The translations under genes and the position numbers were made by a program. Positions 28,148 through 57,995 of a stretch of DNA of 64,000 nt are shown here, one piece after another (the first letter of the stretch is position 1; every line of letters begins with the position of its first letter). The stretch is from Bacteroidota bacterium (GTDB lineage Bacteria; Bacteroidota; Bacteroidia; Cytophagales; Cytophagaceae). The DNA is taken from contig JAEWYS010000015.1 of assembly GCA_023458555.1 (NCBI GenBank), forward strand, positions 123,011-187,010. Direction: 5' to 3'. The notes beneath the pieces were generated by a model. That model saw only the letters and a program-made list of their open reading frames with translations. It was not told where the DNA came from and did no database searches.

Positions 28148-28271
28148 GTTGAAAATATGTTATTAATTATAAAACCATTTATGAAATGAAGTATTGAAAA
28201 AACTCCCAAATATTATTCCATTTTTTAAAAGACACAAATTTTATTTGGTTTGATCCTAAAACCTTTTTACA

Positions 28272-39732: not shown

Positions 39733-39757
39733 AGCCGGGATTAGCCCCCGGTTTTTT
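39733..39757 (+). terminator. possible terminator of the glycogen synthase gene
   Basis: gccggg-atta-gcccccggt short GC stem followed by TTTTTTCTTTTT. It overlaps the 3' end of the convergent gene. Confidence 0.45.
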
Positions 39758-40988: not shown

Positions 40989-40991
40989 TGC

Positions 40992-42164
40992 TCAGGCAAT
41001 TTTTACGGTTAGATCGGAAGCCGACTTTTCTTTAAATGAAGATTTGTTATTTCTTGTTTGATATGTTTTTGCAACATAATTCTTTATTTGCTGCACAAAG
41101 ATGCTTTCATCAAAGTTTTCAGCATGGCTTCTTATAAAGGAAGGACAAAATTCAAGTTTCTCAAATGTTTTGATTGCTGCAATCAGGCTTTCAGGTGTTT
41201 GCTTGTCAAAAAACAGGGCAGTGGCTTTCAGCGAGTCTTTTGTATATGGAATCATTGTTTCCAGAACTCCGCCCTGACCAAAAGCTATCACAGGTCTTCC
41301 GGAAGCATTTGCTTCAAGTGGAGTGATGCCGTAATCTTCTTTCTGGGCAAAAACAAATGCTTTACATTCGGAGTACAACTGCGCCAGTTCTTTGGCAGAA
41401 AGTCCGCTTTTAAATGTAATGTTTGACTTTGCAGATCGTTTAAGAGCTTCTTCCATAGAACCTCTTCCTACGATTATGAGCGGATAACCTAGCTGGTTGA
41501 AGGCCTCGACGATTAAATCTACCTTTTTGTAGCTTTCGAGTCTGCATACAACAAGATAATAATCTTTTATCTGCTTAGAGATATAGAAGCTTTTACTGTT
41601 GACGGGTGGATTTATTACTTCAATATGAGACTTAAAATTATATACCGAAGCAATTCGTCGGGTAACTTCGTATGTATTCGCTATAAAATGATCGGAACGC
41701 CTGGCAGACTTGTAGTCAATTTTTCGTAAAAGTCTGATTACTATACTGAAAGCGACTTTAAGTAGCCCGCTGGCATTCGTATACTGTCGGTAAGACTCAG
41801 GATACCATGCCAGCCGGAATGGCGTATGGCAATAATTGATAACTAATGTTCCCGGTGAAATTCGGGCATACTTGGCGACATATGTAGAGGACATCAGAAC
41901 CACATCATATCCGGAAATATTCATTTGCTTCATCGCTATTATGCCGAATGGAAAAAATAAGCGGCGCATAATATTCTCAGATGAGCAGATCTTGTTAAAC
42001 CAGGAAGTACGAACAGTACAACTGGAAAAATCAGGATAGGTGAGATGTGATCTGAAAGCCATAGTATATATCGGAGCATTGGGAAAAGCCTGATGAAAAC
42101 ATCGAACAACTTGTTCTGCTCCCCCTCTTCGCATTAACTCATCATGCACTATGGCAATCTTCAT
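40992..42164 (-). CDS. GT4-family glycosyltransferase
   Basis: 390 aa. ...EDYGITPLEANASGRPVIAF... (E-x7-E-like). N-terminal MKIAIVHDELMRRGGAE. Confidence 0.83.
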   Translation of the reverse strand: MKIAIVHDELMRRGGAEQVVRCFHQAFPNAPIYTMAFRSHLTYPDFSSCTVRTSWFNKICSSENIMRRLFFPFGIIAMKQMNISGYDVVLMSSTYVAKYARISPGTLVINYCHTPFRLAWYPESYRQYTNASGLLKVAFSIVIRLLRKIDYKSARRSDHFIANTYEVTRRIASVYNFKSHIEVINPPVNSKSFYISKQIKDYYLVVCRLESYKKVDLIVEAFNQLGYPLIIVGRGSMEEALKRSAKSNITFKSGLSAKELAQLYSECKAFVFAQKEDYGITPLEANASGRPVIAFGQGGVLETMIPYTKDSLKATALFFDKQTPESLIAAIKTFEKLEFCPSFIRSHAENFDESIFVQQIKNYVAKTYQTRNNKSSFKEKSASDLTVKIA

Positions 42165-42269
42165 ATAGTATAAATTAAATCCTATTATTTATTGGACTAA
42201 ATACCGAAATTATATAAAAAAAATTGAAAAAGAAATCTATAACACGGAAACTTATACTTTACATCATGT

Positions 42270-43325
42270 TTATTGCATTGCTTCAGAAATGTAATGCATA
42301 AGCTTTATCGATGAATCCTCCCATGAGAATCGTCTGATGTTTTCGAGACCCTTTTTATGTAAATACGCTTGAAGTTCCGAATTGTAACAGACTTCTTTTA
42401 ATTTATTTGCTATATCAGCAGTATCATACGGATTAACGTATACACTTGCATCGCCACATACCTCTCTCAGGCTGGGGATATCTGATACAATTGTAGGGCA
42501 GCCTGAGGCCATTGCTTCCAGTGGAGGGATACCAAAGCCTTCGTAAAAAGAAGGGTAAATAAAAAGGCTTGCCCGTTGATAAAGGGATGCAAGATCATGA
42601 TCACTAATATGACCCGTAAATACAATTTTATCTTTGTATATATTATTGTCTGAGGTTAGTGTGACCTGATCAAACAGCTTGTTTCTGGCACCGACAATAA
42701 CAAGTTTGTATTCATCCAGATTGGCTTTTATGAAGGCTTCGATAAGCGAAGAAAAATTTTTTTTGGGATCTAATGAAGATACTGCTAATATGATTTTTTC
42801 CTTATCTACTGACGCTCCGGCAGAAAAGAATGAAGATACAGAATTCTGTATAATAGCCGGATTCACTCCAAAACGATCTTTTATTCTGCTTTGAGAAAAT
42901 GAACTGACAGTGAAAATTTTCTGTGAATTTTTTATAATAGATGGCAGCAGTATTTTATAGGTCAGCCGAAATGTAAAAGAGTAGCTTTCGGGAACATCAT
43001 ATATTGCCAGATCGTGAACGGTCGCAGCTTTGTTTTTATAAAATACAGGTGCTGTATTAGCCAGATTAATAAGAAACGGATTACCGTGTTTTACCAGAAA
43101 CAAGGGTAAATCAATTTGTTCCCAGAGATGTCCTTTGGTTATTCCGACTGTTATAACCCCAAGCTGATTGGCCAGATTATGATGATATATGTTATGCGGA
43201 GCAACAAAGATGATCTCCGGCATCAGCTTCTTTAATCTAAGAGAGAGCTCGATAGCAAAACGCTGTACTCCGGATATTTTCTGAGTTAAAAAACGTGCAT
43301 TAACTACTATAGTTGGGTTTTTCAT
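42270..43325 (-). CDS. GT4-family glycosyltransferase (mannosyltransferase-like)
   Basis: 351 aa. YEGFGIPPLEAMASGCPTIVS motif. N-terminal ...VNARFLTQKISGVQR. Confidence 0.87.
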   Translation of the reverse strand: MKNPTIVVNARFLTQKISGVQRFAIELSLRLKKLMPEIIFVAPHNIYHHNLANQLGVITVGITKGHLWEQIDLPLFLVKHGNPFLINLANTAPVFYKNKAATVHDLAIYDVPESYSFTFRLTYKILLPSIIKNSQKIFTVSSFSQSRIKDRFGVNPAIIQNSVSSFFSAGASVDKEKIILAVSSLDPKKNFSSLIEAFIKANLDEYKLVIVGARNKLFDQVTLTSDNNIYKDKIVFTGHISDHDLASLYQRASLFIYPSFYEGFGIPPLEAMASGCPTIVSDIPSLREVCGDASVYVNPYDTADIANKLKEVCYNSELQAYLHKKGLENIRRFSWEDSSIKLMHYISEAMQ

Positions 43326-44604
43326 CCTTAAGAGAAATAATTAATCCAATAAAAACCCAGATAAAAAGCACTGAGAAAGTGGGGAATGCATTGAAGCATA
43401 TCAAGAGGGCTATCAATCCGTATCGTAAGACTCTGCTTGTATCTTTGCTTGTCATCCTGTATAAGGCAATAATGAACATAAAGAAGATTGATGCTCCGAT
43501 GATACCGGTTTCACAAAGCATCTCCATAAAGACATTGTTAGGAATCGGTTTCTTATTGGTATAGGGAGATGTTGCTAATGTATTATAATGATCATAATGA
43601 AGAGCATAGTTTGACAGGCCAATACCAAGCAAAGGATTGTCGAGTGTTATATCTTTAGAGACTTTGACAGAGTTTAATCTGTCCATTTTGGAGAACGAAG
43701 CGTTTGATTTTTTGCCCGCAACAACTTTATCTACAAGAATAAACCGAACCGAAGGAGAAAGCAGGGAAAGTCCGAAGACAGATATCATAAATGCCAGTAT
43801 GAAAAGCAGATGGAGAATGTAACGCATTCTGAAGTATCTTTTGAAAAGATAGCATATCAGAAAAAGGAAAGTTGACAGAATTGCAATCGTAGATAAAGTC
43901 GGAAGTATGGAAAACAGAAAGAAAAGTCCTTGTTTCTGTTTGTTGAAATAAAAAGCGATAACACCGGTTATAAGAAGAAAAACACCCATATAGTTACCTT
44001 CTTTGAAGGTACCGCAGCGAATTACGCTAAACTTAGCAGAAAGATTAAGTTTTTGGGGTGTTTCATCCATACCGGGTAAAAGAAACGGAGAATAATCATA
44101 AAAGCTAGCGATTGCAAGATACCAGGTATAGAGGGCAGCTATAGTTGCCCCCCAGAAAAGCAGTCTGGTAAAGCGTTTGGGATTTGTTCTAAATGCGTTG
44201 GCTGCTACGAGCATTGCAGCAACATTAAGATACAGATAGAACAATTTAAGCAGGCTGTCAAGCTTATAGCTTGATCTGGATTCGAAAACCTTTCTTGGAT
44301 AAGGATAACCCCATTTTAAGTGGATTATGGTGGATATAGTTGCAAAGAAGATAAAAAGAATGATTAATCTTACGGCAATACTGTCCAGACCCCAAACCTG
44401 TAGCCTTAAAGACAATACCAGCGTAATGCCAATACTGGCGACAGATAGCAGCAGGGCAATTTCAGATATTTTCAGGGGAAACCCAAGATTTATTGTCAGC
44501 GCATAATTGAAAGGCAGAAACAGAAAAAGTAAGGCTACAATGATATTATCATAGATATTGTATGCTAAGCGGGGGGATATAGGAAGGGATGCTTGCCTGA
44601 TCAT
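43300..44604 (-). CDS. O-antigen polymerase/ligase-family (Wzy-like) membrane protein
   Basis: 434 aa, polytopic. Loop motif ...IPNNVFMEMLCETGIIGASIFF... parallels the HN..L....E.GIIG motif of the gene at 39741..40988. It overlaps the downstream GT4 start by 26 nt. Confidence 0.65.
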   Translation of the reverse strand: MIRQASLPISPRLAYNIYDNIIVALLFLFLPFNYALTINLGFPLKISEIALLLSVASIGITLVLSLRLQVWGLDSIAVRLIILFIFFATISTIIHLKWGYPYPRKVFESRSSYKLDSLLKLFYLYLNVAAMLVAANAFRTNPKRFTRLLFWGATIAALYTWYLAIASFYDYSPFLLPGMDETPQKLNLSAKFSVIRCGTFKEGNYMGVFLLITGVIAFYFNKQKQGLFFLFSILPTLSTIAILSTFLFLICYLFKRYFRMRYILHLLFILAFMISVFGLSLLSPSVRFILVDKVVAGKKSNASFSKMDRLNSVKVSKDITLDNPLLGIGLSNYALHYDHYNTLATSPYTNKKPIPNNVFMEMLCETGIIGASIFFMFIIALYRMTSKDTSRVLRYGLIALLICFNAFPTFSVLFIWVFIGLIISLKDEKPNYSS

Positions 44605-44804
44605 TAAATTAATTAAAATGGGTTGAGCGCATTCTTTTTAACGAAGCCTTCGCTAAAATTTTATGTAACAGATAGTATTTTGTTGCAAAAATATTTTGAT
44701 AGTACAAACATACAAAGCAAAGTCAAGAGCTGCAATATGTGTAAGCGTTTACAATATTTTCGATGAAAAAGCAGTTTAGGTGTAAAATATAGAACAGGAT
44801 TTTA

Positions 44805-44812
44805 TATTTTTG
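44805..44812 (+). promoter_or_regulatory. putative -7 promoter box (TAnnTTTG)
   Basis: TATTTTTG lies 39 nt upstream of ATG 44851. Confidence 0.4.
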
Positions 44813-44850
44813 TCTCCTTTGAACAGACTTTCAATATTAAAAAAATAAGA

Positions 44851-45765
44851 ATGGAAAAACCATATTATCCGCCTCCTTCCTCAGACGAAATTAACCTGTT
44901 GCCTGTCCTGAGATATGTAAAAAGGAAGATTGATGGGATTTTTAATATTATCGGGAACATTTTTTACCTGATAAGAGTACATTCCCTCTATTTACTACAA
45001 TTCATAATTCTGGGAGTAATTGTCGGAGTTGCCTATATGTACCTGAAAACACCTGTGTACAAATCTACGGCTATTTATACTTCTAATCTTATGAATAATC
45101 AGTATAATGAAGCATTTATTAACGAGTTGCGGTGGCTTGCCAGAGAGAAAAACTACGATGAGTTGGCTAAGATACTGGTGATGGATTACGAAGATGTTCA
45201 GAATATAAAAAAGATAGAGTATGAAGCTTTTGAGGTCATTACAAAGGACACGCTGATGAGCTCTTCTTTCAAAGTGCATGTCTATGTAAAGGATGAGAGA
45301 CTATTTGACAGCCTTCAGTATAAGCTGTTGGGCTATATGGAGAATAATATCTATGCAAATAAAAGAAAATTGGCTAAGGAACAAAGTCTCAGATTATTTT
45401 CAGAAAAAATGAATGATGAAATTGTAGAGCTTGACAGCATAAAGAAGATTGTTAGCTTGCAAAGCGGTCAGTTGAATTCATTGGTAGAAACCTACCGCCA
45501 GGTCATAGAGCTATATATGGATCGTTATAAATTGATGGAGCAAATGGCTTTGATGAATAATTATGAACTGATTCAGGAGTTTTCTAATTTCCGGAAACCA
45601 TACAGTCCAAGACTTAGAGAACTATTGCTTATTGTTACTGTATTTGGCTGTGTGGGTCTTTTCTTTGCCAATAATAGGGAGAAAAAGAAGAAATTAGCTT
45701 TTTCCGGGGAAAAGCAGTCCGACAATATAGAGAAGCAAACTTTAAAAGAAGAAGCTTCTGTATAA
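44851..45765 (+). CDS. polysaccharide co-polymerase (Wzz-like chain-length determinant) candidate
   Basis: 304 aa. One TM segment near residues 45-65 and one near the C-terminus flank a helical/coiled region (PCP topology). No kinase domain. The position next to wzx/wzy-like genes supports the call. Confidence 0.5.
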   Translation: MEKPYYPPPSSDEINLLPVLRYVKRKIDGIFNIIGNIFYLIRVHSLYLLQFIILGVIVGVAYMYLKTPVYKSTAIYTSNLMNNQYNEAFINELRWLAREKNYDELAKILVMDYEDVQNIKKIEYEAFEVITKDTLMSSSFKVHVYVKDERLFDSLQYKLLGYMENNIYANKRKLAKEQSLRLFSEKMNDEIVELDSIKKIVSLQSGQLNSLVETYRQVIELYMDRYKLMEQMALMNNYELIQEFSNFRKPYSPRLRELLLIVTVFGCVGLFFANNREKKKKLAFSGEKQSDNIEKQTLKEEASV

Positions 45766-45791
45766 AAGTTCAAGTTTATGTGCTTAAGAGG

Positions 45792-45830
45792 AAAAGAAGG
45801 TTTCTTTCATAGCAGAAACCTTCTTTTTTA
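45792..45830 (+). terminator. rho-independent terminator
   Basis: Perfect 14-bp stem aaaagaaggtttct / agaaaccttctttt (45792-45805 / 45814-45827) with an 8-nt loop, then a T-run. Confidence 0.78.
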
Positions 45831-45930
45831 TTATGAAAAGCATATATTACAGGTTGATCTCATGGCTGGGTAAGTTGTCTAATTTATCTTTCAGCCCGTA
45901 GTCTGTAAGATCGTAATTATTGCTACACAA

Positions 45931-47199
45931 TTGAAAATTCGCTCAGATCAAATTCGCTTAGTCAAGAACTTTTCTTCATTGGCGCTGATTCAGGCCACGA
46001 ATTTTGTATTGCCATTGATGGTTATTCCCCATCAGGTCAGAGTTCTGGGAATTGAAAAGTTCGGTCTTGTTAGTTTTGCTCAGGTAGTTGCTCTGTATCT
46101 CGTGATCTTTTCAGAATACGGCTTTAATCTGTCTGCAACTAAAAGTGTTTCAGAAAACCGAAACAATCCGGCTAAGCTTGGTAAGATCTTCAATTCTGTT
46201 TTATATACCCGACTTTTACTTTGTGTGGCCGGATTTGTCATTACGGTAATACTTACTTTTACTGTTCCTGATTTTAGGCAGCATTACCTATTGTTTTTAT
46301 ATTCCTCAAGTATGTTTTTTGGCCAGGCTCTTGTACCTGTCTGGTTCTTTCTTGGTGTAGAGAAAATGAAATTTATTACGTATCTGAATGTGATATCCAA
46401 AGTTCTTTTTACTCTGTTGACTTTTGTTATTATTCGCAAAGAGTCGGATTATATTTATGCCAATATGCTGCATGGACTTGGAAGTATGGTTGCTGGAATA
46501 ATTGCGCTGATCTTTGTCCAACGTTTTTTTAAAATACGGCTGGGGTTTCCGGGAATAAAACGGGTTTACAAGACATTGAATGACGGGTTTGCAATATTTA
46601 TTTCAAATTTTGCAACAAACATATATATGAATATCAATATTGTAATACTTCAGTTTGTGGCTAATGCTGAAATAGTAGGATTATATAGTATTGCAGAAAA
46701 GGTTCTGATTGCCGGAAAACATCTGGTGTCAGTTATTTTTCAAACGGTTTATCCGTATGTTTGTAAGCTTAAAACAGAGTCGGAAAAGGCTCTTACTGTT
46801 TTTTTTACCCGGTTTAATTATGTCTCCGCTTTTTTCTTTCTGCTGTTTGGCTTGGGAGTGTATGTTTTTTCGGATACAATTATTTTTCTATTGTCAAACG
46901 AGACAAATGAATACTCAGCCTTCCTGCTAAAAAATATGAGTTTTATTCCTTTGATTATCGGGGTTAATATTGCAACCTATCAAACTTTGCTTATATATAA
47001 TTATAAGAGGGCTTTTTCAATAATAATGGTGTCAGCATCTCTGCTAAATATAGGTCTGAATATTATATTGGGAAAAGAACTGGGTGGCCTGGGAACAGTA
47101 TATACCATAGCTATCACGGAAATGTATGTCTTGGTAACAATGAATGTGTTTCTTTTTGTTAAAGACAGAATTAATTACTACTACCCGGTTAAATTATAA
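45931..47199 (+). CDS. wzx: Wzx-type oligosaccharide flippase (polysaccharide biosynthesis protein family)
   Basis: 422 aa, about 12 TM segments. N-terminal ...KNFSSLALIQATNFVLPLMVIPHQVRVLGIEKFGLVSFAQ... is typical of Wzx/RfbX. TTG start. Confidence 0.78.
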   Translation: MKIRSDQIRLVKNFSSLALIQATNFVLPLMVIPHQVRVLGIEKFGLVSFAQVVALYLVIFSEYGFNLSATKSVSENRNNPAKLGKIFNSVLYTRLLLCVAGFVITVILTFTVPDFRQHYLLFLYSSSMFFGQALVPVWFFLGVEKMKFITYLNVISKVLFTLLTFVIIRKESDYIYANMLHGLGSMVAGIIALIFVQRFFKIRLGFPGIKRVYKTLNDGFAIFISNFATNIYMNINIVILQFVANAEIVGLYSIAEKVLIAGKHLVSVIFQTVYPYVCKLKTESEKALTVFFTRFNYVSAFFFLLFGLGVYVFSDTIIFLLSNETNEYSAFLLKNMSFIPLIIGVNIATYQTLLIYNYKRAFSIIMVSASLLNIGLNIILGKELGGLGTVYTIAITEMYVLVTMNVFLFVKDRINYYYPVKL

Positions 47200-47276: not shown

Positions 47277-49121
47277 CTATCTAGGCAGAGCAGCTTCCCG
47301 ATCGAGAATAAGTACCTGCCAGTCCGTTACTTCTTTATAGCCTAACAGGGCCATGCGTTCGAGTATCTTTCGTTTAAAAAGCGTACAGGTTGATTTACGC
47401 ATTTCCAGCATTTGTGCAAGTGTATCGGAAGTAATTTTATTCCGTGAAGAGACCAGATACATCAGATAGAATGCTTTAACAATAGGGAATTTAAGTTTAT
47501 GAAATATAGTATTGGAAGTAATTGATTCATTGTAACCGCAGCAATTGCACCGGCGGTCAAAAATCTTTTTTCCCTTACCGGCATTTCTCTCCCCGCACTT
47601 TTTACAACAAAAACCCTGGCTTCTTTTTAATTCCTCCAGAAAACGGTAGCAGGCAAGTTCATCCGGATATACTTTGACAAACTCTTCAAAGTCAACATGT
47701 GTTTTCATTACCCTTGTCCGTGCAATTTCATGTATTCCTTTTTTCAGTTCCCGGTTGGTCATATCAAGCATCAGATTCATCCGGGTGATTTCATTTGCCT
47801 GGATTTCAAGTTTAGTCATAGCTTCACTAAGCTGCCGTGTTCTTTCAGCTACTTTTTGTTCAAGCTCTCTATTGATCTTCTCTTCAAGCATTTTTTTCTC
47901 CTTCATCTCGATCAGTACTTTTTGCTGGGCAGCTTCTCTCATTTTGATTTCATTCCTCATACGATCAGCCAGAGATACTGATAAAAATACGATATCCAGC
48001 AATATCCCGATATTCATACTATATACAGTTACAGCATGGGAGATAAGGAAGCCTTTATACTCCAGTATACATACTCCGGCGCCTAGAAAAAGCGCAGAAT
48101 AAGCCAGCACAAAGTATCTGGCGGACCGGTCTCCTTTTCTTAAAAAGAACATTCCGATTAGTAATGCAACCAGAAGAACGGCTGCATCAACAAATAAAAT
48201 GGACTGGCTGACAGGAAAAAAAGCCAGAGATAATCCCATAAAAAAAAAGCGGAATAGTATCAGAATATTGACGAGCTTATTTAAGCGTGGGGATTTTTGT
48301 TTTAAGCCAAGGAAGCTTTTGGTAAATAACAGGGCGAAAAGTGTGGTACCGCAAAGTGATACTACACTCAGGTGCATATTGATTGCCGGATATGAAGGCC
48401 AGAGATATTGAAATGCTACTCCATTGATACACATAGAGTACAATGCAAAGCTTAGGACATAGCCTACATAAAATAAATAGGGTTTCTTTCTTATCGAAAT
48501 AAACAACAGAAAGTTGTATGTTGCCATCATCAGAATGATGCCGTAAAAAAGTCCCAGCAGATAGTATTCCCCCAGCGCATATCCGATAAATTTCTTATAC
48601 GATCGGATACAGGGAACCAATACATTTTCATTGGCAGACTCAATCCGTATAAAAAATGTTCCTGACTCTCCGGGGAAGAGAGGGAGATCAAATTCAAAAT
48701 TCTTATGAGCAAATAATCGTGTATTGAACCGACGCAGGTTGCCGGAATGAAGTTCTCTGATAGTGCCATCGGGACGGATGTGATAGAAGCTTATGTAATT
48801 GATATCATGATCAAATATTTCGATAAGCCAGTCAGTATCGGAATTGCTTTTGTTGATAACAGAAAACCTCAGCCAGTAAGCTGATAATTTGTTTTTATTG
48901 ACCGGAAACATGCTCTGAGCGTATTGAAATCTGCTTTCCCGGGAAAAGGAGCTTACATCATGGATGGTAAGAGTTCGCAGACTGTCTTCGAGTATTCCAA
49001 GCCATTGATGGCGTACTCCAATCTCCTCAATGGAATCAGAAAGAATAATTTTGTTTTTAGAGCAGACCAAATGACTTGTAAGTAATAATATATATGTTAA
49101 CAGGGTTATTTTAAAATACAT
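47277..49121 (-). CDS. 7TMR-DISM receptor (DISMED2 ectodomain + 7TM) - coiled coil - IS1595-type transposase zinc-ribbon/HTH module
   Basis: Signal peptide. Ectodomain with ...AYWLRFSVINKSNSDTDWLIEIFDHDINYISFYHIRPDG... (7TMR-DISMED2-like). Seven hydrophobic helices at about aa 185-395. Heptad-rich KMREAAQQKVLIEMKEKKMLEEKINRELEQKVAERTRQL. Then MKTHVDFEEFVKVYPDELACYRFLEELKRSQGFCCKKCG...RRCNCCGYNESITSNTIFHKLKFPIVKAFYLMYLVSS..., the Zn_Tnp_IS1595 pattern (CxxC...CxxC) plus HTH. The protein ends 143 aa after that Met with no DDE domain. Confidence 0.85.
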   Translation of the reverse strand: MYFKITLLTYILLLTSHLVCSKNKIILSDSIEEIGVRHQWLGILEDSLRTLTIHDVSSFSRESRFQYAQSMFPVNKNKLSAYWLRFSVINKSNSDTDWLIEIFDHDINYISFYHIRPDGTIRELHSGNLRRFNTRLFAHKNFEFDLPLFPGESGTFFIRIESANENVLVPCIRSYKKFIGYALGEYYLLGLFYGIILMMATYNFLLFISIRKKPYLFYVGYVLSFALYSMCINGVAFQYLWPSYPAINMHLSVVSLCGTTLFALLFTKSFLGLKQKSPRLNKLVNILILFRFFFMGLSLAFFPVSQSILFVDAAVLLVALLIGMFFLRKGDRSARYFVLAYSALFLGAGVCILEYKGFLISHAVTVYSMNIGILLDIVFLSVSLADRMRNEIKMREAAQQKVLIEMKEKKMLEEKINRELEQKVAERTRQLSEAMTKLEIQANEITRMNLMLDMTNRELKKGIHEIARTRVMKTHVDFEEFVKVYPDELACYRFLEELKRSQGFCCKKCGERNAGKGKKIFDRRCNCCGYNESITSNTIFHKLKFPIVKAFYLMYLVSSRNKITSDTLAQMLEMRKSTCTLFKRKILERMALLGYKEVTDWQVLILDREAALPR

Positions 49122-49218
49122 GATGCGTTATGCCCAATAGTTGTCTGTGAAAATATTATTCAGTTTTATTACATAAAATGACAAAGGTTAAGATGTATGT
49201 CTTTTAAATGTTGTATAA

Positions 49219-49234
49219 TTTTTTTCCTGCAGAT
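49219..49234. repeat. direct repeat copy 1 (TTTTTTTCCTGCAGAT)
   Basis: Exact 16-nt match to 49319..49334. It lies in the divergent spacer between the 7TMR-DISM gene and the S8 peptidase gene. Confidence 0.9.
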
Positions 49235-49318
49235 TTTACTGTTTTGTGTACCTGTTTTTCTTGTCTTCTAAACGGTTTTTAGAGTCTGCTAAAAAACACT
49301 TTTCAGCATTGTGTTTTC

Positions 49319-49334
49319 TTTTTTTCCTGCAGAT
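49319..49334. repeat. direct repeat copy 2 (TTTTTTTCCTGCAGAT)
   Basis: Exact 16-nt match to 49219..49234, offset by exactly 100 bp. It ends 68 nt upstream of ATG 49402. Confidence 0.9.
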
Positions 49335-49401
49335 GGCTGTGTTTCGGAAGTATTGCTTTCTACAATTGCGCTTAATTATCTAAAATTTTTAACCAATTTG
49401 T

Positions 49402-52400
49402 ATGAGAAAAAGAACACGTATCATTTCGATGTTGCTGTTGCTGGGTTTTTCTGCAACAGCACAGCACCAGTATGAGATTAAATTTCGGTCTCATTCGTTT
49501 ACGCCGCCGGAAAGGAAAGCAGAAACTAATCAAAGACAGTCCCGGACTGGTACTGCTCCCGGATATTACCTTGTTCAGTTTGAGGATATTCCTGATAAAA
49601 AGCAAAGAGAACTGCTGACTTTAAAGGGGATTGAGCTGCTGAATTATGTACCGGATATGACTTATGAAGCATATGTCAGCAAACGACTTAGCAGCTCGGA
49701 TCTTGATCTGGCAGGGGTACGAAGTATGGTAAAGGTACCGGCAGAGAGTAAGCTCAGTCTCGAATTGGGTTATGGAAAAATACCTGCTCATGCGCGATCG
49801 GGCAGTACAGCCATTGATGTAGACCTTTTTTTATACAAACCGGAAGATAGAAATCTGGTTGAGGAATCCCTTAAGAATACTAAGGCAAAGGTGATAGGAA
49901 GGGACCAGAAACTTACCGTACGGATAGATAAAGAACATGTCAAAAGGCTTGCTCAAATAGAAGAAGTTCGCTTTATCGATTTCATTCCTGCCCCCTTTAC
50001 CGTATATCTGAACGGAGTGATTTCAGGGCAAAAGGCTTCGGTTCTGCGTTCAGTTTTGGCAGGAGAACGAGGCTTGACCGGAAAAGGTGTGAATATCGGT
50101 GTCGGTGATAATGGTTTTGTTGAGAATCACCTGGATTTTCAGCAGCGATTAACCAATATGTATCAGGATATCAACGAGGGGATGCACCAGGATCATGTGT
50201 CAGGTATTCTTGCCGGCGCCGGTAATATGAATGCCAGATATCAGGGGGTGGCTCCCGGAGCCGTCTTGTATACGGACCGGACTCATGAGATTATCAATAA
50301 CGCCGTTGCTAATCTACAGCAGAAAAACATAGTTATTACAAATAACTCATATGGAGTAATATGTGCGGTAAAGGCAGCCGGCACGTATGACAGCTATTCA
50401 GTGCTATTGGATAATCAGGTGGCAGATGAGGAAGAAATTCTGCACGTAATTGCATCTGGTAATGAGGCTACACTTAATTGTACACCTTCTTATTCAAATG
50501 GATTTGTAAGTGTTTCTTCGGGTATTCAGAGCGCCAAGAATGCGCTTACGGTTGGAAACGTTGATAAAAACAACGTTATACACTCTATGTCGAGCAAAGG
50601 TCCGACTCTTGATGGTCGTATTAAGCCTGAAGTTGTTGGTATAGGAACCGATGTTACTTCTACAATTCCTTACAACAGCTACGTGAATGCATCCGGAACA
50701 AGTATGGCTACCCCAGCGGTTACCGGTACCCTTGCGCTGCTGCATCAGCGCTATAGTCAGCTTCATAACGGCGATAGGGCTTCCGGAGCTTTGCTAAAGG
50801 CGGTTGTATGTAATACTGCTGATGATCTGGGTAATCCGGGACCGGATTTTACTTACGGGTTTGGAAAGATTAATGCCTTAAAGGCCGTCCAGACTCTGGA
50901 AAATCAGACTTATTTCACTGAAGAAGTAGATCATAATGCTCAGAAAACATTTTCAATAAGTGTCCCTTCCGGAGCAAAAGAATTGAAGGCAATGCTATAC
51001 TGGCATGATCCTGCAGGCTCACCCAGCGCATCCAATGCATTGGTAAATAACCTGAATCTTCGTGTAGTCAACAATGGTATACAATACAGTCCCTGGGTGC
51101 TTGATCCGACCAATTTTGCTGTTGATAATCCGGCAGTACGCGGCATAGATTACCTCAATAACATTGAACAGGTTACGATTACCAACCCAACGGCAGGGAC
51201 GACTCAGTTATTGGTAGACGGCTTTATTGTTCCTTCAGGTCCTCAGCGATTCTATCTGGTGTATGAGGTAATTACTTCTGGTATAACACTTACTTATCCT
51301 TATGGAGGAGAAAGTCTTGTGCCGGGAGAAACTATTCCTATTCAATGGGAAGCGGCAGGTAATGGTGATATGACTGCTGAATATAGCTTAGACAATGGTG
51401 CTTCCTGGACAACGATTGCCAATGGAATTAATGCCTCGGACAGAAAATATGACTGGGTTGTTCCCGCCGCTGTTTCCGGGGAAGCAAAAATCCGTGTTAC
51501 TGATGGCGTCTATGCCGGTGAAAGTATCGGTACATTCAGCATTGCAGGTATTCCACAAAATGTCACTCTGATTACTGATTGTGGTCTTACAGGGCAGCTT
51601 TCCTGGGATACATTAGCCGGAGCGGTATCATACAATGTGTATATGCTTTCGCCGGCTGATACGGTCATGCAGATCGTAGCAAATGTCCATACTACTTCAT
51701 ACCAGCTGACAACTTCACAGGTTAGCCCTGATAACTGGTTTGCTGTTCAGGCAGTTTTGGCTGATAGCGGGAAGAGTCTGAGATCTGTTGCCATAAGAAA
51801 TATTACCAGAACTGTCTCTAATCTTCCTTATTCAGAATCTTTTGACTTGGGTACGGGAAGCTGGATTGTCAATGGGTACAACTCGTCATGGCAACACGGC
51901 GCTCCGGCCGGAACTATAATTACTGGTACATCTGAAGCCTGGGTAACAAATCTGACGGGCGATCACAATCCTAATGAATTATCCTATATTGAATCGGGGT
52001 GTTTTGATGTTTCCGAAGTTACAGAACCGGTATATTTTTCCTTTCAGCAATATCTGGCGTTGGGAAGTTCCGATCAGGCGGCTTTTGTAGATTACACTAA
52101 TGATGGTGGAATCACCTGGCAGCGTTTGGGGGATAATACATCAGGAATATCCAACTGGTATACGGCCAATCACCCGGTGGTTGGTTATGCATGGACAAAC
52201 CAGAATGCTGCCTGGAGACCTGTTGTACACAGAATTGAAACTTCTCAGTTTGGTGCTGATAAGGTACTAAAGTTCCGGATCGGATTTTATTCCGGTTCTG
52301 CTGCCGGAATAAGTGAAGGCATTGGTGTTGACGACTTCAGGCTGGATATAACGGATCCTTCTGTTCCTGTGATCTGCTCTTCCGGATCAACCTTTCAATA

Positions 52401-54438
52401 TATGTATGCTGAAAACAGTTACAGCCACTTTACGGATATAGCTCATACTTCTGATGGAGGATATATAGCTACTGGCACTGCAAGGCCATATGAGCCTGTT
52501 TATGTTAACTCCGGCATTGTAGTGACAAAGTTTGATCAGGAAGGGCAAATCGACTGGGCACAGACGTTTTCAAGGGGCATCGGCTTTTTTGCTTCTTTCG
52601 GGGACAAGGTATTGCCAGTTTCCGATGGGTATGTTGTTTCCGCGTTGTGGCAGTTACAGCCTATGGGTATTCCTTCCGGTTCAATTATCAAATTCGGCTT
52701 GTCCGGAGATGTATTATGGTCATATAATATCAATCATCCGACCAATAAGATGCTGGGGGCAACCATAACAGGAATGCTGGAAGATACGGATAAAGGAATT
52801 GTGGTAACCGGCCAGTCAGGGAATTCTGGAGATACGGATATTTTTGCCGCTAAATTTGATAGGTCTGGCAAGCTGCTATGGATAGAATTCTATGCATTGG
52901 ATGGTGTATCAGAGGAACCTTCCGCAATATTGCCGATGGGAAATGACCGTTATGCAATTGTAGGGCGTAAAAATCTTCAGGCAGATGAATTGGTTCTGCT
53001 TATTGTGGGACGCGGAGGTGAATTGCTGGAATATACCAGAACTCCGACATCTATGAATACTTCTCTGAATACAATGGAAAGAAATCACGGAGCCGTACTG
53101 ACCTCAGATGGCTATATTGCCGGGTTTAACCATGCGTACATATATAAAATGGATCTGGAGGGCAACATAGTATGGCTGAAAAATGCAGGTAATATCATTA
53201 CCTTAAGAGAGCTTTCCGAAACTTCAGATGGATACCTGATAGCAGGAGGGGTGGTTCAGCAATCTGAACCAATACATCAGGATATGATTGCTCTTAAGGT
53301 GGACATGAATGGCAATCTTGTTAAGGCGGTAAGCATCGGTAGTGAAGAATCGGATGAAGAAGTGCGGGGTCTGGCTGCAGATTGTTCAGGTATTGTACTT
53401 GCCGGACGTAAAAGTGAAAATTCTTTTGTTGTGAGAACAGACAATGCCCTCTGGGGTGGCTGTGATGAAAAAACGGAAGTGCCCGTTTTGACGAATACGC
53501 TGTATGATTCTCCAATATCTGTCAGCTCATCAGCCTATAGAATTGTTGTTATATATTCCGGGAGTTACAACGGCGTTTTGGCTTCTGATGTAATGACAAG
53601 TAGCTGTACTCCGCAGGATACGACTGTGGTAGAAGAATCGGTTGAAATAAGTGGTATACAGGTCATTTGTAAGCAAAGCTCTTCTGAAAACCATCACACT
53701 CAGACCTATTCAGTGGTGAATCCCAAAGTTGGTGCCACGTATACATGGTCGGTCAGTACAGGCAGCATACAAAGCGGGCAGGGAACAGCCAATGCAACGA
53801 TCTTGTTTCCGTCCGGTACTGGTGTGGTAACTATTGAAGTTACAGAAAGCTATGCAGGAAATTTACTGTCGGGTGAGCGCGAGGTTTCCATGAATATCCG
53901 GCCATCTTCACCTGGGAGCATTACCGGTCCCGGAGGCTATGGAGCAGTATGCTTTAATCAACAGGGAGTAATGTATCAGGTTAGTGGCTCTTCTCCCGGT
54001 TATTTGTGGCAATTACCTTCCGGTTCGGTGATAGCTTCAGGAGAAGGAACCAATACCGTTACCGTGGATTTTGGTACACAACCGGGTAATATTACAGTTT
54101 TTGCACAGAATGGGGAAGGATGCAACAGCTATTCCGGATCGAATATCTGGGTTGGACCAATAGCATGCGGTGGCAGAATTACTGCTTTGTCAGAAATAGA
54201 AGAGCTGGGTTTTGCAGTATGGCCACAGCCGGCAAGTTCGTCAATCAGGGTTCAGGCTTCTGCTCCGATTGTGAATGCCAGGTTAATGACAGCCGGCGGA
54301 AGCACATTGCTGGATCTGCGTGGTAATAATGCTATGGAGATCAGCCTGAATGTGTCCTATCTTTCTGAAGGTATGTATATACTTCAGGTGCAGACGGAAG
54401 ATGCCATTTATACGAGACAGATAATCATATCTCAATAG
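49402..54438 (+). CDS. 1678-aa multidomain S8 (subtilisin-family) serine peptidase with T9SS C-terminal sorting domain
   Basis: Signal peptide (…FSATAQ) and propeptide-like YLVQFEDIP... Catalytic triad contexts VGDNG (Asp), HQDHVSGILAG (His), NNSYG (oxyanion Asn) and SGTSMATPAVTG (Ser). Downstream come Ig/FN3-like regions, about 7 propeller-like repeats and two PKD-like modules. The terminal ...WPQPASSSIRVQ...GMYILQVQTEDAIYTRQIIISQ is typical of a Por/T9SS CTD. Confidence 0.92.
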   Translation: MRKRTRIISMLLLLGFSATAQHQYEIKFRSHSFTPPERKAETNQRQSRTGTAPGYYLVQFEDIPDKKQRELLTLKGIELLNYVPDMTYEAYVSKRLSSSDLDLAGVRSMVKVPAESKLSLELGYGKIPAHARSGSTAIDVDLFLYKPEDRNLVEESLKNTKAKVIGRDQKLTVRIDKEHVKRLAQIEEVRFIDFIPAPFTVYLNGVISGQKASVLRSVLAGERGLTGKGVNIGVGDNGFVENHLDFQQRLTNMYQDINEGMHQDHVSGILAGAGNMNARYQGVAPGAVLYTDRTHEIINNAVANLQQKNIVITNNSYGVICAVKAAGTYDSYSVLLDNQVADEEEILHVIASGNEATLNCTPSYSNGFVSVSSGIQSAKNALTVGNVDKNNVIHSMSSKGPTLDGRIKPEVVGIGTDVTSTIPYNSYVNASGTSMATPAVTGTLALLHQRYSQLHNGDRASGALLKAVVCNTADDLGNPGPDFTYGFGKINALKAVQTLENQTYFTEEVDHNAQKTFSISVPSGAKELKAMLYWHDPAGSPSASNALVNNLNLRVVNNGIQYSPWVLDPTNFAVDNPAVRGIDYLNNIEQVTITNPTAGTTQLLVDGFIVPSGPQRFYLVYEVITSGITLTYPYGGESLVPGETIPIQWEAAGNGDMTAEYSLDNGASWTTIANGINASDRKYDWVVPAAVSGEAKIRVTDGVYAGESIGTFSIAGIPQNVTLITDCGLTGQLSWDTLAGAVSYNVYMLSPADTVMQIVANVHTTSYQLTTSQVSPDNWFAVQAVLADSGKSLRSVAIRNITRTVSNLPYSESFDLGTGSWIVNGYNSSWQHGAPAGTIITGTSEAWVTNLTGDHNPNELSYIESGCFDVSEVTEPVYFSFQQYLALGSSDQAAFVDYTNDGGITWQRLGDNTSGISNWYTANHPVVGYAWTNQNAAWRPVVHRIETSQFGADKVLKFRIGFYSGSAAGISEGIGVDDFRLDITDPSVPVICSSGSTFQYMYAENSYSHFTDIAHTSDGGYIATGTARPYEPVYVNSGIVVTKFDQEGQIDWAQTFSRGIGFFASFGDKVLPVSDGYVVSALWQLQPMGIPSGSIIKFGLSGDVLWSYNINHPTNKMLGATITGMLEDTDKGIVVTGQSGNSGDTDIFAAKFDRSGKLLWIEFYALDGVSEEPSAILPMGNDRYAIVGRKNLQADELVLLIVGRGGELLEYTRTPTSMNTSLNTMERNHGAVLTSDGYIAGFNHAYIYKMDLEGNIVWLKNAGNIITLRELSETSDGYLIAGGVVQQSEPIHQDMIALKVDMNGNLVKAVSIGSEESDEEVRGLAADCSGIVLAGRKSENSFVVRTDNALWGGCDEKTEVPVLTNTLYDSPISVSSSAYRIVVIYSGSYNGVLASDVMTSSCTPQDTTVVEESVEISGIQVICKQSSSENHHTQTYSVVNPKVGATYTWSVSTGSIQSGQGTANATILFPSGTGVVTIEVTESYAGNLLSGEREVSMNIRPSSPGSITGPGGYGAVCFNQQGVMYQVSGSSPGYLWQLPSGSVIASGEGTNTVTVDFGTQPGNITVFAQNGEGCNSYSGSNIWVGPIACGGRITALSEIEELGFAVWPQPASSSIRVQASAPIVNARLMTAGGSTLLDLRGNNAMEISLNVSYLSEGMYILQVQTEDAIYTRQIIISQ

Positions 54439-55265: not shown

Positions 55266-55431
55266 ACTGATAATAAATTTTTAAATATATCGGATATTAC
55301 CGGATAATCTTTCTGGTGGAAATACTATCCAATGATAATAAAATAGCGGCAAATACCGGTCCGTAATTTGCGAATTGTTGGTCACACAAGGAATTTTTCT
55401 GTGAGAGCGGGTAACTCCTGTATACTCTGGA

Positions 55432-56181: not shown

Positions 56182-56182
56182 A

Positions 56183-57994: not shown

Positions 57995-57995
57995 A

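What the first reader, a model, noticed from the sequence alone, without database searches (positions are those of the whole stretch)
47277..49121. 7TMR-DISM surface receptor whose only output is a transposase-derived (IS1595-type) zinc-ribbon/HTH module
**Seen in the sequence.** A single uninterrupted 614-aa ORF contains, in order:
- a signal peptide
- a 7TMR-DISMED2-like ectodomain (AYWLRFSVINKSNSDTDWLIEIFDHDINYISFYH)
- seven TM helices
- a heptad-rich linker of about 70 aa
- a 143-aa tail beginning MKTHVDFEEFVKVYPDELACYRFLEELKRSQGFCCKKCG...RRCNCCGYNESITSNTIFHKLKFPIVKAFYLMYL...

The tail matches the N-terminal zinc-ribbon (CxxC...CxxC) plus HTH of IS1595-family transposases. It starts at what looks like the original transposase Met (codon 47706-47708). 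The ORF stops (…QVLILDREAALPR) about where the DDE catalytic domain would begin, and only 77 bp separate it from the next gene, so no transposase core is present.

**Established knowledge.** 7TMR-DISM receptors normally signal through histidine kinase, GGDEF, cyclase or phosphatase modules.

**Inference.** This looks like a one-component, membrane-tethered DNA-binding regulator built from a domesticated transposase DNA-binding domain. It may couple an extracellular (carbohydrate?) signal to expression of the adjacent giant T9SS protease and/or the neighbouring glycan cluster. I am not aware of a described system with this architecture.
Basis: partly seen in the sequence, partly recalled or inferred. 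Interest (0 to 1): 0.78.

Follow-up and report, generated by a model that had tools for sequence, protein, structure and literature searches.

The report
Membrane receptor with transposase-derived DNA-binding tail
This gene encodes a seven-helix surface receptor whose only intracellular part is a DNA-binding module copied long ago from an IS1595 transposase, and it belongs to a large, apparently undescribed family of Bacteroidota sensor-regulators, most of which sit next to nutrient-uptake genes.

Summary
The ORF at 47277-49121(-) encodes 614 aa: a signal peptide, a 7TMR-DISMED2 ectodomain, seven TM helices, an ~85-aa continuous helix and a 143-aa cytoplasmic tail.

**Tail origin.**
- The tail is 37-47% identical over almost its whole length to the N-terminal zinc-ribbon plus HTH of bona fide IS1595 transposases.
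- It ends at the first strand of their DDE domain.
- Pfam alone would have missed this (PF12760 E=0.2 here).

**Not an IS remnant.**
- At least 645 clusters at 50% identity match the tail, mostly ~600-650-aa receptors.
- The tail is the best-conserved part of the protein.
- It is also fused to Reg_prop/Y_Y_Y sensors.
- In a neighbour-joining tree, all receptor tails form one clade that excludes the transposases.

**Genomic context.** In 51 of 80 related loci the receptor gene lies directly upstream of a SusC/SusD pair. A receptor-specific pair of operator-like sites (aATGTTTTTnnnnCGnnAAA, 65-66 bp apart) sits between them.

**In the window.** There is no SusC/D. A matching pair (TGTCTTYTAA, 64 bp apart) lies between the receptor gene and the divergent T9SS S8 peptidase gene, 140 bp from its ATG. 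The pair is conserved upstream of orthologues that have other neighbours.

**Best reading.** This is a membrane-tethered one-component transcription regulator. DNA binding, ligand and target are inferred, not shown.

The parts
47277..49121 (-). Whole receptor-regulator ORF (614 aa plus stop codon at 47277-47279)
   Evidence: ORF list and sequence. A 100% identical protein is on record from independent assemblies.
49059..49121 (-). Signal peptide, aa 1-21
   Evidence: Hydrophobic segment at aa 3-21. N-terminal helix aa 2-16 with low confidence at 17-21 in the AF2 model.
48621..49004 (-). 7TMR-DISMED2 extracytoplasmic beta-sandwich sensor domain, aa 40-167
   Evidence: Pfam PF07696, E 1.8e-28. 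All-beta region aa 25-174 in the AF2 model.
47961..48569 (-). 7TMR-DISM seven-helix membrane domain, aa 185-387
   Evidence: Pfam PF07695, E 1.8e-46. Seven hydrophobic segments at aa 188-382, with K/R-rich loops at 207-218, 272-285 and 327-335.
47709..47960 (-). Cytoplasmic linker helix (signalling-helix or coiled-coil type), aa 388-471
   Evidence: The AF2 helix 368-473 is continuous with TM7, with a low-confidence hinge at 460-474. Conserved motif ELExKVAERTxEL in the family alignment.
47280..47708 (-). IS1595-transposase-derived tail, aa 472-614. Contains an N-terminal helix pair, a Cys4 zinc ribbon, a three-helix HTH and a vestigial first DDE strand (W601..LILD)
   Evidence: tblastn and BLASTP to IS1595 transposases. 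Profile search. AF2 pLDDT 90.6. It is the most conserved region of the protein.
47532..47666 (-). Zinc ribbon, aa 486-530 (Cys 506, 509, 525, 528; extra invariant Cys 491)
   Evidence: Invariant C20/C35/C38/C54/C57 in tail alignment A1. PF12760 covers the full profile but below its cut-off here. Relatives score above the cut-off (P0105 at 26.6 bits, P0214 at 29.3 bits).
47343..47483 (-). Helix-turn-helix, aa 547-593. Putative recognition helix is RKSTCTLFKRKILERM
   Evidence: AF2 helices 547-559, 565-572 and 576-593. Conserved L572, R575, T578, F582 and K585. Weak local fold matches to wHTH regulators only.
49198..49207 (+). Distal copy of the operator-like element, TGTCTTTTAA
   Evidence: Pattern search gives 3 matches in 64 kb against 0.55 expected, two of them here. 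Conserved in orthologous loci.
49262..49271 (+). Proximal copy of the operator-like element, TGTCTTCTAA (extended form TTGTCTTCTAAACG). It lies 64 bp from the distal copy and 140 bp upstream of the S8 peptidase ATG
   Evidence: TTGTCTTNTAANCG occurs once in the window. It also occurs once, upstream of the receptor gene, in each of L002, L005-7, L085-87 and L091.
49402..54438 (+). Divergent 1678-aa S8 peptidase with PKD and Por_Secre_tail (T9SS cargo). This is the candidate regulated gene
   Evidence: Pfam. The neighbour is retained in the 80%-identical orthologue. Site geometry mirrors that upstream of SusC in related loci.

Best explanation
The gene encodes a membrane-anchored one-component transcription regulator.

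**Proposed mechanism.**
- An extracytoplasmic 7TMR-DISMED2 domain senses a ligand. By family context this is probably a glycan or another polymer breakdown product.
- The signal passes through the seven-helix bundle and a long, presumably dimeric, cytoplasmic helix.
- It reaches a zinc-ribbon plus helix-turn-helix module that was domesticated once from an IS1595 transposase DNA-binding domain.
- That module binds a pair of TGTYTTTTAA-type sites spaced about six helical turns apart and controls the adjacent promoter.

**Targets.** In most sampled relatives the controlled genes are a downstream SusC/SusD transporter pair. In this window the pair of sites lies between the receptor gene and the divergent T9SS-secreted S8 peptidase gene. 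The likely targets are therefore that peptidase and/or the receptor gene itself.

**Shown:**
- the protein architecture, its topology and the homology of the tail to IS1595 transposases;
- the conservation of the family and its gene neighbourhood (synteny);
- the conserved DNA elements.

**Inferred:** DNA binding by the tail, dimerisation, ligand, direction of regulation and identity of the target.
For: **Architecture and topology:**

**Tail homology to real IS1595 transposases, over aa ~7-143 and ending at the DDE boundary:**

**Tail structure:** it folds confidently (pLDDT 90.6) into a helix pair, a zinc ribbon and a tri-helical HTH.

**Family size and conservation.**
- 2693 clusters at 50% identity match the tail at E<1e-3 and 645 at E<1e-10. 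Most are 580-650 aa with the tail at the C-terminus.
- The tail is the most conserved region: 48% mean identity, against 32-39% for the other domains.

**Modularity.** The same tail is attached to Reg_prop+Y_Y_Y sensors, the sensor type of Bacteroides hybrid two-component regulators.

**Single origin.** In the NJ tree, 46 7TM and 9 Reg_prop tails form one clade containing 0 of 37 transposases.

**Synteny.**
- 51 of 80 loci show receptor, then SusC-like, SusD-like and Laminin_G_3 genes on the same strand.
- Other loci carry GH81-CHU_C, GH16 or GH144-like genes.

**Operator-like element in the SusC-linked loci.**
- Two sites lie 65-66 bp apart in 28 loci, and several are palindromic.
- 76 of 79 PWM hits in 1.09 Mb lie just downstream of the receptor gene.
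- The same two-site layout appears in held-out loci.
- Overall, 34 loci have two hits 64-67 bp apart.

**In the window.**
- Two TGTCTTYTAA copies lie 64 bp apart and 140 bp from the S8 ATG.
- The two-copy element with 63-64 bp spacing recurs upstream of orthologues at 52-80% identity whose divergent neighbour is different. The element therefore tracks the receptor gene.
Against: - There is no experimental evidence of DNA binding for any family member.
- No solved structure resembles the whole tail.
- PF12760 is below its cut-off in this protein.
- The window has no SusC/D, and the PWM built from SusC-linked loci does not score the window's sites. The link between the two motif versions rests on a shared core and shared spacing.
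- The window motif was defined post hoc. Only L091 is an independent test.
- One 50%-identical relative (L092) lacks the element.
- The sites could be promoter elements, or could be bound by another factor.
- Closer relatives have varied neighbours: Crp-like, LytTR, TPR. S8 as the target is supported only by geometry and by an 80% orthologue too close to be informative.
- My gene calls in the loci are crude (ATG-only ORFs), and the tree has no bootstrap support.
Confidence: 0.65

Rival explanations
1. Recent IS1595 insertion remnant. A transposase fragment fused by accident to a 7TMR-DISM gene and replaced a kinase or cyclase output, leaving a decaying, non-functional tail.
For: - The tail is clearly transposase-derived and even keeps a vestige of the first DDE strand.
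- Other 7TMR-DISM proteins carry HATPase, GGDEF or SpoIIE outputs.
Against: - About 50 full-length homologues at 29-80% identity carry the same fusion, and there are hundreds of clusters in the exhaustive search.
- The tail is the best-conserved part of the protein.
- Receptor tails form a clade separate from the transposases.
- There is no DDE domain.
- No kinase-bearing orthologue was seen at this position.
Confidence: 0.02
2. The tail is made and acts separately. An internal start at M472 yields a soluble 143-aa zinc-ribbon/HTH protein, or regulated proteolysis releases it. The DNA-binding species would then not be membrane-tethered.
For: - M472 coincides roughly with the transposase N-terminus.
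- A low-confidence hinge at aa 460-474 precedes the tail.
- Stand-alone ~140-148-aa homologues exist on long contigs.
Against: - Met is not conserved at this position in the family, where L, H or T occur.
- The continuous reading frame and the linker are conserved throughout.
- No signal for an internal promoter or cleavage site was identified. Neither can be tested with these tools.
Confidence: 0.15
3. The tail is not a transcription-factor domain. It binds a protein partner or RNA, or it acts on IS1595 elements (for example as a transposition inhibitor, like other truncated transposases). The conserved DNA repeats would then be promoter elements or sites for another regulator.
For: - DNA binding is untested.
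- The fold search gives no significant match to a DNA-bound structure.
- Truncated transposases acting as inhibitors are known from established knowledge (IS1 InsA, Tn5 Inh).
- A conserved CGTTTGAAATC element beside the proximal site could be a promoter box.
Against: - The dual sites are found almost exclusively next to receptor genes: 76 of 79 hits.
- They follow the receptor across three different neighbour contexts.
- No other regulator gene is common to these loci.
- The ends of related IS elements (TTGAATTAGGCAC; Chondrinema AATAGGGTTACCC...) do not resemble the sites.
- Conserved basic residues lie in the HTH.
Confidence: 0.15
4. The regulator is real, but the S8 peptidase is not its target. 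The dual site serves only autoregulation of the receptor gene, and the true regulon lies elsewhere in the genome.
For: - The element tracks the receptor gene while the divergent neighbour changes: S8 peptidase here, Crp-like in Sporocytophaga and L091.
- A third TGTCTTTTAA lies in another divergent intergenic region, at 28225-28234.
Against: - The sites read toward the divergent gene, as the SusC-linked sites read toward SusC.
- The proximal-site-to-ATG distance (140 bp) falls in the SusC range of 128-184 bp.
- The S8 neighbour is kept in the 80% orthologue.
Confidence: 0.3

Closest known systems
Bacteroides hybrid two-component systems (HTCS; e.g. BT4663, BT1754), the regulators of polysaccharide utilization loci (established knowledge)
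   Same: - Both are inner-membrane proteins with an extracytoplasmic glycan sensor and a C-terminal DNA-binding domain in one polypeptide.
- Both are encoded next to the SusC/SusD genes they control.
- A sister class of the present family uses the very same sensor type, Reg_prop + Y_Y_Y (L066).
   Different: - This protein has no HisKA, HATPase, receiver or AraC-type HTH, so there is no phosphorelay.
- The output is a coiled-coil plus an IS1595-derived zinc-ribbon/HTH.
- The sensor here is 7TMR-DISMED2 with 7 TM helices.
- This window has no SusC/D.
7TMR-DISM receptors (Anantharaman & Aravind 2003; e.g. LadS, RetS, NicD, RgsP)
   Same: The DISMED2 ectodomain plus the 7TM module both score well above the Pfam cut-offs. 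A helical linker leads to a cytoplasmic output.
   Different: Described outputs are histidine kinase, GGDEF/EAL, cyclase and PP2C/SpoIIE, as also seen among the distant hits. I found no description of a direct DNA-binding output.
IS1595-family transposases (ISXO2-like; PF12760 + PF12762)
   Same: The N-terminal ~130-140 residues (helix pair, Cys4 zinc ribbon, HTH) are homologous at 32-47% identity.
   Different: - There is no DDE catalytic domain.
- It is not mobile.
- It is fused to a receptor.
- It forms a separate clade.
- The associated DNA sites are unlike the IS ends examined.
Membrane-bound one-component transcription regulators (ToxR, TcpP, CadC, ChiS)
   Same: The concept is shared: a DNA-binding domain tethered to the membrane and controlled directly by an extracytoplasmic sensor, without a phosphorelay to a separate regulator.
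   Different: - ToxR and CadC have an N-terminal OmpR-type wHTH, one TM helix and a C-terminal periplasmic sensor, which is the reverse topology.
- They are unrelated domains in different phyla.
Domesticated transposase DNA-binding domains used as transcription factors (e.g. ZBED6, THAP proteins in eukaryotes)
   Same: A transposase DNA-binding domain is retained under purifying selection after loss of the catalytic core and is reused for host gene regulation.
   Different: Those are eukaryotic, soluble nuclear proteins from other transposon superfamilies. Here the domain serves as the output module of a bacterial membrane receptor.

Membership tests
7TMR-DISM receptor family | 7TMR-DISMED2 (or DISMED1) extracytoplasmic domain | tested here: met
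   PF07696 at aa 40-167, E 1.8e-28, 99.6 bits against a cut-off of 22.
7TMR-DISM receptor family | Seven-helix 7TMR-DISM_7TM membrane module | tested here: met
   PF07695 at aa 185-387, E 1.8e-46. Seven hydrophobic segments. Seven helices in the AF2 model.
7TMR-DISM receptor family | Cytoplasmic output of a described type (kinase, GGDEF/EAL, cyclase, PP2C) | tested here: not met
   No such Pfam or NCBIfam domain is present. The output is the IS1595-type tail.
IS1595-family transposase | N-terminal zinc-ribbon (PF12760) plus HTH region | tested here: met
   The Pfam score is below cut-off for this protein (12.1 against 25.4 bits). Pairwise and profile homology to annotated transposases over aa ~7-143 is clear. 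Relatives score above the cut-off.
IS1595-family transposase | DDE_Tnp_IS1595 catalytic domain (PF12762) | tested here: not met
   There is no PF12762 hit. The ORF stops at the residue aligned with about position 145 of a transposase whose DDE domain starts at 131. Only 77 bp separate it from the next gene.
IS1595-family transposase | Mobile element with terminal inverted repeats and multiple copies | tested here: not met
   There is a single tail copy in the window. The gene is syntenic with the S8 peptidase in an orthologue. Flanking inverted repeats were not specifically searched for.
PUL sensor-regulators (functional class: regulator encoded beside SusC/SusD) | Adjacent SusC-like TonB-dependent transporter and SusD-like gene | tested here: not met
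   There are no SusC/SusD homologues anywhere in the window. The feature is met in 51 of 80 related loci.
Hybrid two-component system (HTCS) | HisKA + HATPase + receiver + AraC HTH in one chain | tested here: not met
   None of these domains is present. The resemblance is functional only.
Sequence-specific DNA-binding transcription regulator | Demonstrated binding to a defined operator and an effect on transcription | not testable with these tools
   The only evidence is indirect. It consists of the HTH fold and receptor-linked dual sites.

The most novel reading that the evidence does not exclude
A single ancient domestication of the IS1595 transposase DNA-binding domain produced a modular output domain for Bacteroidota membrane sensors, both 7TMR-DISM and Reg_prop/Y_Y_Y.
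- These sensors form a previously unrecognised, widespread class of phosphorelay-free regulators of SusC/SusD loci and of T9SS-secreted degradative enzymes.
- They act from the membrane on dual operators spaced six helical turns apart.
- The window's member controls the giant S8 peptidase.
Probability: 0.55. Interest if true: 0.85.

Novelty: new variant of a known kind. Interest (0 to 1): 0.78.

Why it matters
**For polysaccharide utilization.** Regulation of these loci is understood mainly through HTCS, SusR and ECF-sigma/anti-sigma systems of gut Bacteroides. Many environmental Cytophagales loci have no such regulator assigned. If this reading is right, this family supplies a further regulator class for a large set of loci. 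It comes with a predicted operator that makes regulons computable and testable.

**For signalling.** It would give the 7TMR-DISM receptors, whose signalling is poorly understood, a simple transcriptional read-out.

**For evolution.** It would be a clear bacterial example of a transposase DNA-binding domain domesticated into a host signalling output.

**For annotation.** Pipelines currently label relatives as 'transposase', 'sensor histidine kinase' or 'chromosome partitioning protein'. These labels are misleading.

Tried and rejected
1. **Locus search with the broad alignment.** The search for related loci with tail alignment A1 failed because no stretch was conserved enough. I repeated it with the narrower alignment A2.
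2. **Structural matches.**
   - The first fold search was lost and the model vanished, so I repeated it.
   - The PDB fold search gave no hit at E<=1e-3. It showed only weak local matches to zinc-ribbon ribosomal proteins and wHTH regulators.
   - The PDB sequence-profile search found nothing significant.
3. **SusC-linked PWM on the window.** The best score was 15.1, inside an unrelated ORF, with nothing in 49122-49401. The window's sites emerged only from comparison with orthologous upstream regions.
4. **Other repeats in the intergenic region.** There is a 23-nt direct repeat TTTTTTTCCTGCAGAT (49212-49234 and 49312-49334) and a 19-nt repeat at 49254/49275. Only one copy of each is conserved in the 80% orthologue, so I do not count them as operators.
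5. **Do the sites derive from IS ends?** The Chondrinema IS inverted repeats and the 13-bp repeats TTGAATTAGGCAC of the closest ~296-aa transposase show no resemblance.
6. **Is the Crp-like neighbour of Sporocytophaga orthologues present beyond the S8 gene?** No. That ORF is a superoxide dismutase.
7. **Covariation between recognition-helix residues and operator core.** I inspected this but did not quantify it, because closely related loci confound it.
8. **Literature.** Searches for 7TMR-DISM with zinc ribbon, transposase, SusC or PUL, and for PF12760 and IS1595 domestication, found no description. The library holds only open-access papers.
9. **Organism.** The cluster look-up returned no name for the window's organism.
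Full report

Yes. Window 47277..49121(-) is one uninterrupted 614-aa ORF with an ATG start. The identical protein is on record from independent NCBI, ENA and Logan assemblies. A sequencing frameshift that fuses two genes is therefore very unlikely.

- Pfam gives 7TMR-DISMED2 at aa 40-167 (E 1.8e-28) and 7TMR-DISM_7TM at aa 185-387 (E 1.8e-46).
- A hydropathy scan finds a signal peptide (aa 3-21) and seven membrane segments (aa 188-382). The K/R-rich loops at 207-218, 272-285 and 327-335 place the N-terminal domain outside and the C-terminus in the cytoplasm.
- An AlphaFold2 model of the whole protein (36-sequence alignment, mean pLDDT 82.8) shows a beta-sandwich ectodomain and seven helices.
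- In the same model, one continuous helix runs from TM7 to residue 473. A low-confidence hinge at 460-474 and a separate globular tail follow it.
- The 77-bp gap to the next gene, a convergent Wzx-type flippase, is correct.

**2. Is the tail really IS1595-derived?**

PF12760 scores E 0.2 / 12.1 bits against a 25.4-bit cut-off, although it spans the whole profile. Direct comparison settles the question.

- tblastn of the 143-aa tail against plasmids hits annotated IS1595 transposases. Chondrinema litorale scores E 3e-19, and ISCsp2 of Comamonas and others scores E 8e-9.
- BLASTP gives 37% identity over tail residues 10-143 to the 300-aa Chondrinema protein, and 32% over residues 7-138 to ISCsp2.
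- Both transposases carry DDE_Tnp_IS1595, starting at residue 131 and 139 respectively.
- A profile of 27 receptor tails hits ~296-aa PF12760+PF12762 transposases at E 1e-36 to 1e-44. These are 40-47% identical to the window's tail.

The homology therefore covers the helix pair, the Cys4 ribbon and the HTH, not only the 46-residue Pfam ribbon. The tail ends where the catalytic domain begins. Its last conserved motif (W601..L.LD) aligns with the first DDE strand and first Asp of the transposases.

On its own the tail folds with pLDDT 90.6 into helices 7-13 and 17-31, ribbon strands, and helices 76-88, 94-101 and 105-122. Nothing in the PDB resembles the whole domain. There are only weak local matches to zinc-ribbon ribosomal proteins and winged-HTH regulators.

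M472 lies within 2-11 residues of the transposase N-termini. That position is not a conserved Met in the family.

**3. Accident or family?**

It is a family.

- About 50 full-length proteins (590-693 aa, 29-80% identity, 84-100% coverage) from Sporocytophaga, Pedobacter, Mangrovivirga, Hymenobacter and many metagenomes share the architecture. All have the tail at the C-terminus.
- An exhaustive search with the tail alone finds 2693 clusters at 50% identity at E<1e-3 and 645 at E<1e-10. Most of the best 150 are 580-650 aa with the match at the C-terminus.
- A second class of ~980-1070 aa carries the same tail behind Reg_prop repeats, a Y_Y_Y domain and a coiled coil. That is the sensor of Bacteroides hybrid two-component regulators.
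- A third class is stand-alone ~140-148-aa proteins on long contigs.

Within the family the tail is the most conserved region. Mean identity to the window protein is 48%, against 32% for the ectodomain, 38% for the 7TM module and 39% for the linker.

A neighbour-joining tree (122 sequences, rooted on ISCsp2) places all 46 7TM and 9 Reg_prop tails in one clade that contains none of 37 transposases. This suggests one domestication followed by shuffling between sensors. The tree has no bootstrap values.

These results exclude the 'recent IS remnant' alternative.

**4. What do relatives sit next to?**

A scan of one genome per species found at least 461 confirmed loci. The 80 kept are mostly Cytophagales, with some Sphingobacteriales, Chitinophagaceae and Flavobacteriales MAGs.

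Using my own ORF calls and BLAST clustering:

- 51 of 80 loci have, immediately downstream on the same strand (gaps mostly 209-320 bp), a ~1010-aa gene, a ~510-aa gene and a third gene.
- In Chryseolinea serpens these are a SusC-like transporter (CarbopepD_reg_2 + Plug), a SusD/RagB protein and a Laminin_G_3/Big_7 protein. A PF10091 'glucoamylase' gene lies upstream.
- A Reg_prop-class member shows the same arrangement (L066).
- Other loci pair the receptor with a 1776-aa GH81 enzyme carrying a CHU_C T9SS signal, and with GH16.

The family is thus consistently linked to uptake or secretion genes for polymer degradation.

**5. A receptor-specific DNA element.**

The receptor-to-susC spacers share a conserved block, CGTTTGAAATCAATGTTTTT. 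They also carry two direct copies of aATGTTTTTnnnnCGnnAAA.

- The two copies lie exactly 65-66 bp apart in 28 loci.
- Several copies are palindromes: TGTTTTTATTGGATAAAAACA in L014, TGTTTTTTTTCCGGAAAAAACA in L035, and a perfect 32-nt palindrome in L023. This is what a dimeric HTH protein would recognise.
- A 22-nt weight matrix built from these sites gives 79 hits scoring 17 or more in 1.09 Mb. Of these, 76 lie in the spacer just downstream of a receptor gene.
- Loci not used for training show the same two-site, 64-67-bp layout.
- In all, 34 loci have two hits at that spacing.
- The two sites of a locus are slightly more alike than sites of different loci (0.515 against 0.454, permutation p 0.0008).
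- The proximal site lies 128-184 bp upstream of the susC ATG.

The receptor is the only regulator-like gene common to these loci.

**6. The window itself.**

The window contains no SusC/SusD homologue and only one tail copy. The neighbours are:

- a divergent 1678-aa S8 peptidase with PKD and Por_Secre_tail domains;
- a convergent polysaccharide-biosynthesis cluster (Wzx, Wzy, GT4).

The SusC-type matrix does not score the window's spacers. This fits a different recognition helix: RKSTCxxFKxKI here, against LRvNTvWaFkhKV in the SusC-linked receptors.

Comparing regions upstream of orthologous receptor genes revealed a subfamily version of the element.

| Locus | Identity to window protein | Divergent neighbour | Element |
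|---|---|---|---|
| Window | – | S8 peptidase | two copies, 64 bp apart |
| L088 | 80% | S8 peptidase | two copies, 64 bp apart |
| Five Sporocytophaga loci | ~52% | Crp-like gene | two copies, 63 bp apart |
| L091 | 58% | Crp-like gene | two copies, 64 bp apart |
| L092 | 50% | TPR protein | absent |

- Read in the receptor's direction the element is TTA[AG]A[AG]GAC[AG]. Its reverse complement is TGTCTTYTAA.
- In the window the copies are at 49198-49207 and 49262-49271 on the + strand. TGTCTTYTAA has only 3 matches in 64 kb (0.55 expected), two of them here.
- The longer form TTGTCTTNTAANCG occurs once in the window. It also occurs once upstream of the receptor gene in each Sporocytophaga locus and in L091.
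- For L091, the one lineage not used to define the pattern, I estimate the chance of two same-strand matches at this spacing in 420 bp at about 2e-7. This is my own arithmetic from base frequencies.

The core TGTYTTTTAA(G/A)CG matches the left half of the SusC-type site. The Sporocytophaga proximal copy, TTGTTGTCTTTTAAGCGAAAAA, even scores 14.7-16.3 with the SusC matrix.

The sites read toward the divergent gene, just as the SusC-type sites read toward susC. The proximal copy is 140 bp from the S8 ATG, inside the SusC range.

This geometry is the only evidence that S8 is the target. The 80% orthologue keeps the S8 neighbour but is too close to be informative. In more distant orthologues the element stays with the receptor while the neighbour changes, which fits autoregulation equally well.

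**7. Mechanism proposed.**

- A ligand binds the DISMED2 domain.
- The change passes through the 7TM bundle and the ~85-aa helix. That helix carries the ELExKVAERTxEL motif common to kinase linkers and is presumably a parallel dimer.
- This sets the relative position of two zinc-ribbon/HTH modules, which bind the dual sites and switch the neighbouring promoter.

The steps shown are the architecture, topology, homology, conservation, synteny and site conservation. The steps inferred are DNA binding, dimerisation, ligand, the sign of regulation, and whether the tail stays tethered.

**8. Comparison with known systems and novelty.**

- It works most like a Bacteroides hybrid two-component regulator. 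But it lacks every phosphorelay domain and the AraC HTH, so it is not a member.
- It is a bona fide 7TMR-DISM receptor with an output type I could not find described.
- It is not a transposase, because it has no DDE domain.
- It resembles ToxR, CadC and ChiS only in concept.

Nine literature searches and four paper look-ups found no description of this fusion, or of an IS1595-derived regulator. That library holds only open-access papers. Databases do list the domain combination implicitly.

I rate it a new variant of a known kind: a membrane one-component, PUL-type regulator with a new, transposase-derived DNA-binding output. It is of high interest because it defines a large, testable family.

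Noticed in passing
window 28225-28234 (-): This is the only other TGTCTTYTAA match in the window. It lies in the divergent spacer between a DUF1573/Ig-like protein gene (27368-28147, -) and an E1-dehydrogenase/transketolase-type gene (28332-30761, +). It is about 80 bp from the DUF1573 ATG. It is a single copy, with no partner 64 bp away that I could see.
   Followed up: partly
window 49212-49234 and 49312-49334 (+): A 23-nt direct repeat, TGTwTwmTTTTTTTCCTGCAGAT, is present twice, 100 bp apart. It sits in the same spacer as the candidate operator. Only the second copy is largely conserved in the 80% orthologue (L088).
   Followed up: partly
proteins P0105, P0145, P0158, P0184, P0214; locus L066:4229-7435: A second receptor class of ~1000-1070 aa joins the same IS1595-type tail to Reg_prop repeats and a Y_Y_Y domain, the sensor of Bacteroides HTCS regulators. 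In L066 it is followed by SusC/SusD-like genes, but the SusC-type weight matrix finds no site there.
   Followed up: partly
proteins P0281, P0288, P0293-P0295, P0301, P0302, P0306 and others: A separate clade of stand-alone ~140-148-aa zinc-ribbon/HTH proteins has no DDE domain. Some are on contigs of 65-124 kb, and they are annotated 'transposase' in Bacteroidales MAGs. They may be soluble domesticated relatives or transposition regulators.
   Followed up: no
loci L065, L068, L073, L080: In Flavobacteriales or Bacteroidetes MAGs the receptor gene follows a ~1776-aa GH81 enzyme with a CHU_C T9SS signal. It precedes GH16 and unknown genes. These look like beta-1,3-glucan loci without a detected SusC cluster. 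Operator-like sites lie downstream of the receptor gene (L068 7469-7563) and upstream of the GH81 gene (L073 277-298).
   Followed up: partly
loci L093-L100: A very compact IS1595-family element of ~960 bp encodes a 295-aa transposase. It has 13-bp terminal inverted repeats, TTGAATTAGGCAC, and is seen at several different insertion sites.
   Followed up: partly
window 39741-47199: A polysaccharide-biosynthesis cluster (GT4 glycosyltransferase, Wzy_C O-antigen-ligase-like, a 304-aa protein without a Pfam match, and a Wzx-type flippase) ends convergently 77 bp from the receptor gene. I found no evidence linking it to the receptor.
   Followed up: partly
window 54591-58105 (-): Downstream of the S8 peptidase gene lie an Fe/Mn superoxide dismutase, a 249-aa TPR protein and a BatD-like protein. 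A 249-aa TPR protein is also the divergent neighbour of the receptor homologue P0013 (L092). I did not compare the two TPR proteins.
   Followed up: no
plasmid or chromid records of Persicobacter sp. JZB09: One replicon, CP012852.1, holds 14 separate places matching the tail, and other replicons hold 1-4. The family is therefore strongly expanded in some genomes.
   Followed up: no
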